Source: Trypanosoma brucei (Eukaryota). From it: a stretch of DNA of 64,000 bases. Location of the stretch: NCBI GenBank assembly GCA_000002445.1, contig CH464491.1, positions 4,864,001 through 4,928,000 on the forward strand, written 5' to 3'. Position numbers: made by a program. Of this stretch, positions 43,101 to 46,100 are shown one piece after another. Every line of letters begins with the position of its first letter. The first letter of the stretch is position 1.

Positions 43101-46100
43101 TCCATCTTGCGTCTCGTTTCGGTCGCATGTGTTGCCATCCCCTGCAGACACTGGAATGTTACTCCTAGAAGCTTCGGTGTCCTGTCAGCTCCTATTCTTT
43201 CGCCGTCCAGTTGTAATGTAAGGGGGTGGCGCTCTATACACCCGAAGAGTGTGCACTTTGTTTTCGCTACGTTGACAGACATGAAGTACTCTTGTGACCA
43301 CTGTAACACCACGTTGAGGCCGCATTGCAGTGTGTGGTTGATGACATCCCTCTCTGTGTGTCTCGCAAGTAGCGTCAGGTCGTCTGCAAAGAATCCGTGC
43401 TGCAGTAACGGCACTTCTGCAAGGCGTTGGCTCAACGAGTTCATGACAATAATGAACATGATTGACCCAAGGACAGTTCCTTGTGTCACTCTTCGCTCAA
43501 ATGTTCTGCTTCTGGAAAGCTTCTCCTTGAATCTCACTCTGCCAGTTCGGTTACTCAGAAATGATACGCACCACTTCACAATGTGGGGTGATACCTTCAT
43601 TCTGTGCATTTCCCTCGCAATTTTGTCGTTGTACACTGTATCGAATGCCTTCTCGTAGTCAACGAATACAGCACCCGTACGAGATTGATGCGTGGGGCGG
43701 CAAAGGGCAGCACCGACCTGCAGGAGTTGTTCGAGTGTTGAGCATCCGGGGCGAAAGCCTGATTGCTGCGGCGTCAGCTGGGACTCAACAGTGTCTCTAA
43801 GCCTCGCGGCAATTATGCGCTCCATGACTTTGCAGAGACAGCTCGTGAGCGTCACAGGCCTGTAAGAATCGAGGTCCTCCGCCTTTTTTCCGGCCTTCAG
43901 GATGGGGATGATAACACCAGTCTTCCATGCAGGCGGCACGACTCCCCTTCGTAGGCTGTCATTGAATAGCCTCAGAACAACATTCTGCGCTGTGTTACAG
44001 AGATGTTGCAGTGCCTCGTTGTATAAGCAATCAGGTCCGGCTGCGGATCCACTCGGTAGCAGTTTGATCGATCTCCGTAGTTCAGCCATAGTGATGGGAC
44101 TGAACTCACTCGCTATCGTCTTTATGGGTGCCGGTGGGTGTGAGTCGGGGTGCCTTCTTGCCCGGGATGAGTACAGTTTAATGAACCTCTCAGCTTGACG
44201 GTAGTCCGTGATGGCCGCGTTATCAACAAGTACCGCCGCTGTGGTTAGTGGTCGTGGCGCATATACCTTCTTGACAATGTGCCAACTGCAGCGGTCTGAC
44301 ACCGCAAGTATGGAGCATAGCGTGTTCCATCTCTTCTTTGTGGTACGGTCCAGTATCTGCTTACACGTGGCTACCAACTTTTCCCTTCGATAGGAGGGTC
44401 CGCAACCAGCGATCTCTTCATCGAGTTTCGCGAGCTCAGGTGTCCAATGTGGTGGCGTTGCTCTGCAGCCACGGGGGACGGAGACCTTCGTCGCAATGCG
44501 GATGGCGGAGCTCAATTTCTGTTCCAGGGTGTTGACGTTCTTCTCTCTACCAATTTTCCTGCAGAGCTCGTCAACCTTGAGATGGAAATTCCTCCAGTCA
44601 GCTTTTAGCCATGCGTACATGGGCTTTCGAAGCCGCGGGCAACTCAGTGCATCTGTGTCGTCTCCAACGATAACGTCAAAAAATATGTGATGGTGATCAC
44701 TATCGGGAGAATACAGCGATGTCCACGTGTAAACTGTGCAATTCCTTGACAGTGCCACATCAGGGGTGGACTCTCCGTGGTGGCGCGCGTACCTGGTGTA
44801 CTCACCAGTGTTGCAGACCAGAAACTGGTTGTCAATGCACCACTGTGTGAGGGTTTCACCCTTGGTATTTGGTGGGCTCGCGCGATCCCATGCCAAAGCG
44901 TGTGCGTTAGCCTCTACACCGATGAGCTGGGCCCCGTCAGTCGTCAGAAGCGTATCTAGGTCAGTTGCCGTGAAGGTGTGTTTTGGTGGGATGTATGCCG
45001 ACGTGACGGTCAGCGCAGTTTCACGTGCAAGGTGAATTGTTGCATGCACTTGTTCAATGCGACCAACAACGGTCATACCTATCTAGGCTGGTAGGTCCTC
45101 CCTCACTAGTATTGATACACCACCTCCTTTGCAGTTACGAGCTATTCCGTGATGTTGGTAGCCAGCAACGCTAAAGCAAGCCGCCCCTCCAGGCGTCATC
45201 CTTGTCTCACTCAACAGACAAAAGGCGATCCGCTCATCAACAAGGGTTTTGTGGAGTGCTAATCTCTTTCCTTGAGATAGCCCGGCGCAGTTTCACTGCA
45301 TCCCGCACAACGACGGGCTGGGATTCTCTTCCACATCACCGGACAGCAGCATCTTAGTGCGGATGATACTGCTGATGGCACGCTGGCACGTGCCCAGGGA
45401 CCGACAAATGAAAAACGGTGTCCCAGCAAGACGCTGCTGATCCCTGTGCTGTATGATGCCGTATCCGGAGCAAAGCAGTGTTCCCCATGAAAGGAACGCT
45501 GCTGGCTCTTGGCTTCCCCCGATGATACGGGGTACTGGACCCTGGCACCACGTTGAGGTGGCCGGCGTCGCCAGGGAAATTTTCTATTTGCTACAAAACT
45601 GGAAACGTAGCAAGAATTTTTCTCTTTTTTGCAGCCATCTGTGCATTCTTTCTTTCCTTTCCTTTTGGATTTCCCCTGCTTGCTCTCCTTTTTCTGCTTT
45701 AGCTTTGCATTTTTAAAATATAAGTGTCACTATCGCAGTCGAGAGTTTTGCATTCCTCTGCTATTTTTTGGTGTGTTTGGCGCATTCTTGCGTCAGTGTG
45801 CTTGTCCCAGTTATTAGCGTTAGCTTTCCACTGGTGTGTACATGTGCCGGTACTGTTGATAAGAGGTGGTTAAAAACTGCTTCCGCTTGCCAGCTGAGCA
45901 TGCTCATTTCCGCAATTACTTTATTTTGCTGCGCACAACCGGCCAGTGTCTTCTCTATTTCTTGCGCTGCAGCCTCTAGGTTATCTTCGTATCCAGTTGC
46001 GGCTGCTAATTTGGTAGTTTTGTGTTTCGTGAATTTGCTGAATTCTGCACAGGCGCTGTCAGCTTGGGTGCCGCGGTGGGCTAATGTTCCTTTTGTACCT

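What the first reader, a model, noticed from the sequence alone, without database searches (positions are those of the whole stretch)
45540..45640. ingi 5' end inserted inside the GPI-signal coding sequence of a VSG
Minus-strand translation immediately 5' of the ingi terminus gives ..KECTDGCKKEKNSCYVSSFVANRKF and then ccctggcgacgccggccacc.., the ingi start. The VSG is cut after the codons corresponding to ..SSFLVNKKF of the class-1 GPI signal.

The nine VSG-like nucleotides ttttgcttcata (ttt gct ..) reappear on the other side of the ingi, after its A-run at ~40309..40320. That is consistent with insertion into the motif aaaatttgct.. with a short target-site duplication around gaaaattt.

The conserved VSG 3' cassette therefore appears to contain an ingi/RIME integration hotspot.
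Basis: partly seen in the sequence, partly recalled or inferred. Interest (0 to 1): 0.65.

Follow-up and report, generated by a model that had tools for sequence, protein, structure and literature searches.

The report
Ingi retroposon truncating a VSG pseudogene
A full-length but dead ingi retroposon does cut a silent trypanosome coat-protein pseudogene inside its GPI-anchor signal, but the supposed target-site duplication is not there and the site is not a recurrent insertion hotspot, so this is an ordinary, already catalogued subtelomeric insertion.

Summary
The junction is real. On the minus strand a VSG pseudogene (47002..45577) reads ...SSFVANRKF and then runs straight into nucleotide +1 of a 5256-bp ingi (45576..40321). 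The same junction is in a T. equiperdum OVI contig. It is also listed in a published table of T. brucei TREU927 ingi/RIME copies (chr11, NT_165288).

- The 'gaaaatt' before the A-run is the conserved ingi 3' terminus, seen in five of six other copies. It is not duplicated target.
- The two flanks match at only 3/12 positions.
- The 12-mer matches the RHS (retrotransposon hot spot) duplication TTTTGCTTCATT at 11/12, better than any of 84 non-RHS junctions.
- The VSG flank is a poor ingi target, ranking 81st of 94 against a consensus I built from 94 TREU927 junctions.
- Only 1 of those 94 junctions, and 1 of about 11 VSG 3' ends in the window, lies in GPI-signal codons.

Best reading: one old insertion at a non-consensus site, whose 3' flank was later replaced by ingi-ingi recombination with an RHS-type tandem. 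In-silico mis-joining within the repeat is the main alternative. An assembly gap hides what lies downstream. Interest is low.

The parts
45577..47002 (-). VSG pseudogene. It has an ATG at 47002 and several frameshifts and stops, and is truncated after the ninth codon of the GPI signal (...SSFVANRKF, codons 45603..45577).
   Evidence: Three-frame translation; Pfam VSG_B on the ORF 46154-46612; 58-73% identical VSG homologues; alignment with other VSG 3' ends; start coordinate.
48527..48546 (-). 70-bp-repeat core upstream of the VSG pseudogene. It marks an ordinary array cassette rather than a retrocopy.
   Evidence: Pattern search.
40321..45576 (-). Ingi A: a full-length (5256 bp) but degenerate ingi, running from CCCTGGCG (+1) to ...cacgaagaaaatt + A9.
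   Evidence: Self-BLAST and 5'-end search; 95-96% identity end to end with T. equiperdum ingi copies; Pfam Exo_endo_phos_2+RVT_1, RNase_H+zf-C2H2 and zf-C2H2 on three ORF pieces in different frames.
40321..40339 (-). Ingi A 3' terminus gaagaaaatt + A9. This is element sequence, not target-site duplication.
   Evidence: Same terminus in L001, L002a, L004, L005 and L006 and in TREU927 tails.
40309..40320 (-). 12-bp spacer TTTTGCTTCATA between two head-to-tail elements. It has the length and composition of an ingi target-site duplication and matches the RHS hot-spot duplication TTTTGCTTCATT at 11/12.
   Evidence: sequence; RHS flanks; ranking against 94 junctions; duplication-part score 5.3 bits, as high as the RHS sites.
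40183..40308 (-). Element B: the 5' end of a second ingi/RIME. About 100 nt align at 87% identity, the sequence is low quality with an N at 40214, and it is cut by the assembly gap.
40083..40182 (.). 100-N assembly gap. It hides at least 2.3 kb, so what follows element B is unknown.
   Evidence: T. equiperdum OVI contig L007 is colinear with window 31374..40082 and continues 2289 nt beyond it with sequence absent from the window.

Best explanation
The locus is a subtelomeric VSG-array cassette of T. brucei TREU927 chr11, or an identical sequence.

Inferred first step: an ingi retroposon integrated by target-primed reverse transcription inside the GPI-signal codons of a VSG, at a site that does not fit the element's usual target motif. 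The break at element nucleotide +1 is what a full-length copy gives. Published work attributes this 5' end to an HDV-like ribozyme in the first 77 nt.

Shown: the element has since decayed (three ORF pieces in different frames), and the junction is old enough to be shared with T. equiperdum OVI.

Shown: the sequence after the element's A-run does not belong to that insertion. It is a 12-bp spacer followed by another ingi/RIME 5' end. This is the known 'tandem elements separated only by the 12-bp duplication' arrangement, and the spacer is the duplication typical of the RHS hot spot.

Inferred second step: homologous recombination or gene conversion between the VSG-borne ingi and the first element of an RHS-type tandem replaced the 3' part and 3' flank. 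That left discordant flanks and no duplication.

The site is a single event, not a hotspot.
For: - Junction and VSG identity.
- Ordinary cassette with an upstream 70-bp repeat.
- Same junction in an independent assembly. Same junction in the TREU927 table, with the 100-nt flank identical and the same 10,721-bp spacing to element C.
- Ingi duplications are 12 bp and preceded by a conserved motif, and tandem elements separated only by the duplication are frequent: PMC3820030.
- Flanks match at 3/12.
- The spacer matches the RHS duplication at 11/12 (TREU927 chr2 and chr6 RHS copies ...GGTGTTGGATCATTTTTGCTTCATT; T. equiperdum L004 TTTTACTTCATT / TGCTTCATT). None of 84 non-RHS junctions reaches 11/12.
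- With an RHS upstream motif the spacer gives a top-ranking target (13.8 bits). With the VSG upstream sequence the motif part scores -4.8 bits.
- Elements without a duplication are common: 2 of 6 complete copies fetched.
- Ingi/RIME recombination causing rearrangements is documented: PMC2854126.
Against: - Only 12 nt of 3' flank exist, so an RHS origin rests on one short match. My rough likelihood estimate is about 0.8.
- Ingi duplications share a general consensus, so a non-RHS site could look similar. One non-RHS flank reaches 10/12. An ingi inserted in a VSG N-domain in L007 has TAGTGCTTCACT, which is 9/12 to the RHS duplication.
- No RHS sequence is present in the window.
- The region downstream of element B is lost in the gap.
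- The proposed parental elements cannot be identified, so chimerism of ingi A is untested.
Confidence: 0.55

Rival explanations
1. The VSG originally read ...AATAGAAAA|TTTTGCTTCATA.... Element B inserted there with a 12-bp duplication. Ingi A then inserted at the same nick with an atypical 3-bp duplication (ttt), giving VSG-ttt-A-ttttgcttcata-B. The 12-mer would then be VSG GPI-signal sequence.
For: - It reproduces the observed order of bases exactly.
- 'tttgct' could encode the expected F-A of KKFAL.
- Repeated insertion at one site is the accepted origin of tandems.
- The spacer is a good duplication-type sequence.
Against: - It needs two independent insertions at a site whose upstream motif scores -4.8 bits and has no GG at all, whereas tandems are explained by strong recognition sites.
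- It needs a 3-bp duplication in a family with a fixed 12-bp duplication.
- The 12-mer fits VSG continuations only with two or three gaps, against 11/12 ungapped to RHS.
- No other GPI-signal insertion occurs among 94 junctions.
Confidence: 0.15
2. Assembly chimera. The 5' junction is real, but the 3' part of ingi A, the spacer and element B come from reads of a different ingi locus, such as an RHS pseudogene, that were joined in silico within the 5-kb repeat at the end of a contig.
For: - The contig ends about 125 nt beyond the spacer in low-quality sequence: an N at 40214, and element B only 87% identical with indels.
- It abuts a 100-N gap that hides at least 2.3 kb.
- The independent OVI contig confirms only the first 50 nt of the ingi.
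Against: - Ingi A is a continuous 5256-bp element with no visible break.
- The TREU927 table reports the same layout, though it derives from the same assembly.
- Nothing here tests read support.
Confidence: 0.15
3. A real integration hotspot in the conserved VSG GPI-signal cassette: recurrent, sequence-directed ingi/RIME insertion at the KKF codons.
For: - One insertion is at that place.
- VSG 3' regions are hit elsewhere. Two TREU927 elements sit at the homologous C.WI..I.G site of VSG C-terminal domains, preceded by TGGATTGA/TGGATTAC. One more is in a C-terminal domain and one degenerate element is in a VSG 3'UTR.
Against: - 1 of 94 junctions, and 1 of about 11 VSG 3' ends in the window.
- The flank ranks 81/94 for the target motif.
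- The other VSG hits are at different positions.
- No VSG fusions occur among 15 annotated proteins that contain translated ingi/RIME 5'-end sequence.
Confidence: 0.04

Closest known systems
Tbingi/TbRIME (ingi4 subclade) non-LTR retroposons with relative site specificity (Bringaud et al. 2004, as summarised in PMC3820030)
   Same: 79-nt 5' signature starting CCCTGGCG, 5.25-kb length, APE endonuclease/RT/RNase H/zinc-finger coding capacity, short A-run, and a full-length 5' end.
   Different: This copy has no 12-bp duplication. Its 5' flank lacks the upstream G.GT.GG.T motif that I recovered from 94 TREU927 junctions.
Tandem ingi/RIME arrangements separated only by the 12-bp duplication (PMC3820030, citing T. 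brucei and T. cruzi work)
   Same: Two head-to-tail elements in the same orientation with exactly 12 bp between them.
   Different: The same 12-mer should precede the first element. Here VSG sequence does.
RHS (retrotransposon hot spot) pseudogenes (Bringaud et al. 2002; PMC7563717)
   Same: The spacer TTTTGCTTCATA is 11/12 identical to the duplication at the RHS insertion site (TTTTGCTTCATT). RHS sites often hold one or more elements.
   Different: No RHS coding sequence is seen. Upstream is a VSG, and downstream is an assembly gap.
Ingi/RIME-mediated rearrangements in T. brucei genomes (PMC2854126)
   Same: Discordant flanks of a complete element are what ectopic recombination between dispersed copies produces.
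   Different: The recombination partner is not identified here.

Membership tests
ingi (autonomous ingi/RIME-family retroposon) | Conserved 5' signature beginning CCCTGGCG... | tested here: met
   Exact 31-nt match at 45576..45546.
ingi (autonomous ingi/RIME-family retroposon) | About 5.25 kb, colinear with other ingi copies, and ending in a short A-run | tested here: met
   5256 bp. 95-96% identical over positions 1-5256 to five T. equiperdum copies, and over 1-5247 to the 3'-truncated L005 copy. Ends in A9.
ingi (autonomous ingi/RIME-family retroposon) | Single long ORF encoding endonuclease, RT, RNase H and zinc fingers (a potentially active copy) | tested here: not met
   All domains are present but split over three ORFs in different frames. 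This is a degenerate copy.
ingi (autonomous ingi/RIME-family retroposon) | 12-bp target-site duplication | tested here: not met
   AATAGAAAATTT against TTTTGCTTCATA gives 3/12.
ingi (autonomous ingi/RIME-family retroposon) | Conserved motif upstream of the duplication | tested here: not met
   The flank ranks 81/94, at -1.9 bits, against a matrix built from 94 TREU927 junctions.
Tandem elements sharing one insertion site | Head-to-tail elements separated by exactly the 12-bp duplication | tested here: met
   A9 | 12 nt | CCCTGGCGATGCC at 40320..40296.
Tandem elements sharing one insertion site | The same 12-mer flanks the outer ends | tested here: not met
   The 5' outer flank is VSG sequence. 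The 3' outer flank is lost in the gap.
RHS hot-spot insertion | Duplication of the RHS site (TTTTGCTTCATT or subfamily variants) | tested here: met
   11/12. Only RHS copies reach this among 94 junctions.
RHS hot-spot insertion | RHS 5' half (GIGKS P-loop coding) upstream of the element | tested here: not met
   Upstream is VSG. tblastn with an RHS N-terminal region finds nothing in the window.
RHS hot-spot insertion | RHS 3' half downstream of the last element | not testable with these tools
   Element B runs into the 100-N gap. No other assembly of this stretch could be retrieved.
   1 of 94 TREU927 junctions; 1 of about 11 VSG 3' ends in the window; 0 VSG fusions among 15 annotated proteins containing translated ingi/RIME 5'-end sequence.

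The most novel reading that the evidence does not exclude
VSG 3' cassettes may contain real, sequence-directed ingi/RIME targets, though not at the GPI-signal codons. The C-terminal-domain motif ...TG(T/C)TGGATTGA..., which mimics the RHS recognition motif TTGGATCA, is hit at the homologous position in two different TREU927 VSGs. Under this reading ingi insertion would be a recurrent route to 3'-truncated VSG pseudogenes, and ingi-ingi recombination would link VSG arrays to RHS clusters. The present locus would be one product of that traffic.
Probability: 0.12. Interest if true: 0.4.

Novelty: already known. Interest (0 to 1): 0.1.

Why it matters
It matters little. It is one more decayed ingi in a silent VSG array. 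The copy is already in the TREU927 reference and in a published table of ingi/RIME positions.

Its practical value is as a caution. In ingi-rich subtelomeres the element's own 3' end (gaagaaaatt + A-run) and the T-rich start of duplications easily mimic a short duplication. Elements with discordant flanks should be read as recombinants, or as mis-joins, before a new target preference is proposed.

The truncation removes the hydrophobic half of the GPI signal and the 3'UTR. This VSG can therefore act only as a partial donor in mosaic formation.

Tried and rejected
- **Duplication in other registers.**
  - AAAAAAAAATTT against AATAGAAAATTT gives 10/12. I rejected it because the A9 run is part of the element; L001 and L004 also have A9, with 7-12 A's in the other copies.
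  - TTTTGTAGCAAA at -22..-11 against the spacer gives 8/12. I rejected it because it is not adjacent to the element and the intervening 10 nt are colinear VSG codons.
- **Nine-nucleotide identity between the VSG flank and the ingi tail.** AGAAAATTT in the VSG flank equals the ingi tail AGAAAATTT in L001 and L004. I considered it as a microhomology signal. I rejected it because it sits at the wrong junction for priming and is a variant of the canonical KKF codons AAGAAATTY, which already resemble that tail.
- **VSG retrocopy or template-switch chimera.** Rejected because a 70-bp repeat lies upstream.
- **Finding the locus in a long-read assembly.** Exact look-ups of window ORFs failed for the 851-aa ingi ORF, a 503-aa VSG and the 127-aa VSG ORF. 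Only short T. equiperdum OVI contigs were found.
- **Rows with VSG flanks at query positions 65-175 in the published table.** They looked like many VSG-3'-end insertions. They appear to be artefacts of a longer query sequence that carries a VSG 3' end in its first 175 nt or so.
- **Rfam.** No family is found at the ingi 5' end.
- **Primary papers.** Bringaud 2002 and 2004 are not held, so I rebuilt the target consensus from data.

Full report
**What is there**

The window is a T. brucei-group subtelomeric VSG array. It holds about 11 VSG 3' ends, 23 70-bp-repeat cores, three ingi/RIME 5' ends and two 100-N gaps.

It is identical to T. brucei TREU927 chr11 (NT_165288) at the two places I could compare. 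The 100-nt flanks of two elements in a published table match exactly. The 10,721-bp spacing between those elements is also the same.

On the minus strand a VSG pseudogene starts at 47002. It carries several frameshifts and stops. Its ORF 46154-46612 hits Pfam VSG_B, and a 70-bp-repeat core lies upstream at 48527-48546.

The pseudogene ends ...KKECTDGCKKEKNSCYVSSFVANRKF at 45577. Base 45576 is nucleotide +1 (CCCTGGCG...) of an ingi.

Alignment with seven other VSG 3' ends in the window places the break after the codons equivalent to SSFLVNKKF. The closest intact VSGs (58-62% identity) continue ...KKFALSMAAEFLSLVVF.

The junction is not an assembly artefact. A 7-kb T. equiperdum OVI contig, 99.4-99.97% identical, carries it and stops 50 nt into the ingi.

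**The element**

Ingi A (45576..40321) is 5256 bp. It is 95-96% identical over its full length to five T. equiperdum ingi copies, and over positions 1-5247 to a sixth, 3'-truncated copy.

It encodes Exo_endo_phos_2+RVT_1, RNase_H+zf-C2H2 and zf-C2H2. These lie on three ORF pieces in different frames, so it is a dead copy.

Its 3' end reads ...cacgaaggcacgaagaaaatt + A9. Five of the six other copies end ...gaagaaaatt(t/c/cc), and four of those five follow it with A7-10; the 3'-truncated L005 copy has no A-run. TREU927 tails in the published table read the same way.

**The other side**

After the A9 come exactly 12 nt, TTTTGCTTCATA (40320..40309). A second ingi/RIME 5' end (element B, CCCTGGCGATGCC...) follows immediately. 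About 125 nt later it runs into a 100-N gap, in low-quality sequence.

The gap is not small. T. equiperdum OVI contig L007 is colinear with window 31374..40082. It continues for 2289 nt that are absent from the window. That stretch holds the rest of the plus-strand VSG, another VSG, and a plus-strand ingi/RIME 5' end. What follows element B is unknown.

**Duplication test**

The literature states three things about ingi/RIME (PMC3820030):
- Their duplications are 12 bp.
- Tandem elements separated only by the duplication are frequent, and arise from repeated use of one site.

Among the complete copies I fetched:
- L006 has a perfect duplication (TTTCACATATCT).
- L002a has a near-perfect one.
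- L001 has 8/12.
- L004 has a partial one.
- L002b and L005 have none.

For ingi A the 5' 12-mer AATAGAAAATTT and the 3' 12-mer match at 3/12. Sharing 'ttt' means nothing: 27 of 94 TREU927 duplications begin with TT and 10 with TTT.

**What the 12-mer is**

A T. equiperdum RHS pseudogene (L004) has an ingi at the classical RHS site. Its flanks are ...GGATTATTTTTTACTTCATT|ingi|TGCTTCATTccctgc. L002a is a second RHS subfamily.

Supplementary File 1 of PMC4660242 gives the 100-nt 5' flank of every ingi/RIME hit in TREU927. I read parts 1-4 and 6, and transcribed 94 unique 5'-complete junctions.

Ten of the 94 are RHS sites. Two of these RHS copies, on chr2 and chr6, end ...GGTGTTGGATCATTTTTGCTTCATT, which matches the spacer at 11/12. 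One RHS flank and one non-RHS flank reach 10/12. None of the 84 non-RHS flanks reaches 11/12.

A position matrix from the 94 flanks recovers a clear target: G.GT.GG.T..T upstream, and TT....T..A.. within the duplication. Scores against it:

| Sequence scored | Score (bits) |
|---|---|
| Spacer, duplication part only | 5.3 (as high as the RHS sites) |
| RHS upstream motif + spacer, total | 13.8 (top of the list) |
| VSG upstream sequence + spacer, upstream part | -4.8 |
| Actual VSG flank of ingi A, leave-one-out total | -1.9 (rank 81 of 94) |
| Random sequence | -5.5 +/- 4.0 |

By a rough likelihood estimate the spacer is RHS-derived with probability about 0.8. There are caveats. Twelve nucleotides is little, duplications share a general consensus, and the L007 insertion in a VSG N-domain has TAGTGCTTCACT.

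**Hotspot test**

- Of the 94 TREU927 junctions, one lies in GPI-signal codons, and it is this locus.
- Three lie in VSG C-terminal domains. Two of them are at the homologous C.WI..I.G position, preceded by TGGATTGA/TGGATTAC.
- One degenerate element lies in a VSG 3'UTR.
- In the window, the other VSG 3' ends, about ten of them, are intact at this place.
- I searched 5.8 billion proteins with the ingi 5' end translated in three frames. It returned 15 proteins, including fusions to RHS and to unknown ORFs, and none to a VSG. This sample is biased because pseudogenes are rarely annotated.
- Many rows of the published table with VSG flanks (query positions 65-175) appear to be artefacts of a longer query that itself begins with a VSG 3' end.

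**Mechanism**

My best reading has confidence 0.55. One full-length ingi inserted at a non-consensus site in the GPI-signal codons. About 15% of TREU927 junctions score as poorly or worse. The precise +1 end is what a full-length copy gives; published work locates an HDV-like ribozyme in the first 77 nt of these elements (titles and abstracts listed; not tested here, and Rfam finds nothing).

Later, recombination between this copy and the first element of an RHS-type tandem replaced the 3' part and 3' flank. Ingi/RIME recombination causing rearrangements is documented (PMC2854126).

Rivals:
- An in-silico join within the repeat at a poor-quality contig end: 0.15.
- A true GPI-signal hotspot: 0.04.

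**Verdict**

The junction is real, but it is ordinary and already catalogued. The proposed duplication and hotspot are not supported.

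Noticed in passing
window 40083..40182 and locus L007 8657..10945: The 100-N gap hides at least 2.3 kb. In T. equiperdum OVI the plus-strand VSG continues to an intact GPI signal and 3'UTR 16-mer. Another VSG follows, interrupted in its N-terminal domain by a plus-strand ingi/RIME 5' end with flank ...cgcttcgTTAGTGCTTCACT|CCCTGG. The gap therefore lies between inverted ingi copies.
   Followed up: partly
window 56056..56297 (-): Element C is only the first 242 nt of an ingi/RIME (95% identity) with no 3' half. 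Its flank is ...GTAGATTGATAATGGGGA, it lies about 2.3 kb downstream of a VSG 3'UTR, and the next VSG start (55787) is about 270 nt beyond it. It is listed in the TREU927 table as NT_165288:20126-20367.
   Followed up: partly
window about 15101..18724 (+): A degenerate ingi-related element (DIRE-like). It has a 70-nt match (77%) to ingi nt 8-77 at 15108..15177. ORF fragments follow with weak Exo_endo_phos_2 (15052-16176) and RVT_1 (16705-17178) hits.
   Followed up: partly
PMC4660242 Suppl. File 1 (TREU927 NT_165288:37564 and NT_165288:113874): Two ingi/RIME 5' ends sit at the homologous position of two different VSG C-terminal domains (...CRWITYIEG| and ...CCWIDLIDG|), 12-13 nt after TGGATTAC/TGGATTGA. 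That motif resembles the RHS recognition motif TTGGATCA. This could be a real recurrent target, or one ancestral insertion that was later duplicated.
   Followed up: no
PMC4660242 Suppl. File 1, rows with query start 65-111: One of the queries behind that table seems to carry a VSG C-terminal end, GPI signal and 3'UTR in its first 175 nt or so, followed by an ingi-like 5' signature. Dozens of plain VSG 3' ends are therefore listed as 'RIME A' fragments. At NC_007279:43524 a 69-nt ingi-type signature starts about 45 nt after a VSG stop codon.
   Followed up: partly
window 27414, 30652 (+) and 9422 (-): Three VSG 3'UTRs carry TTTTGCTTAATT shortly after the stop codon. This is 10/12 identical to the ingi spacer, which shows how easily T-rich 12-mers match in this genome. 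About 80 matches at 10/12 or better occur in 370 kb scanned on both strands.
   Followed up: yes
window 1..64000: VSG orientation switches twice: minus at 1-10 kb, plus at 15-40 kb, minus at 40-64 kb. Retroposon sequences or gaps lie at or near both switch points.
   Followed up: no
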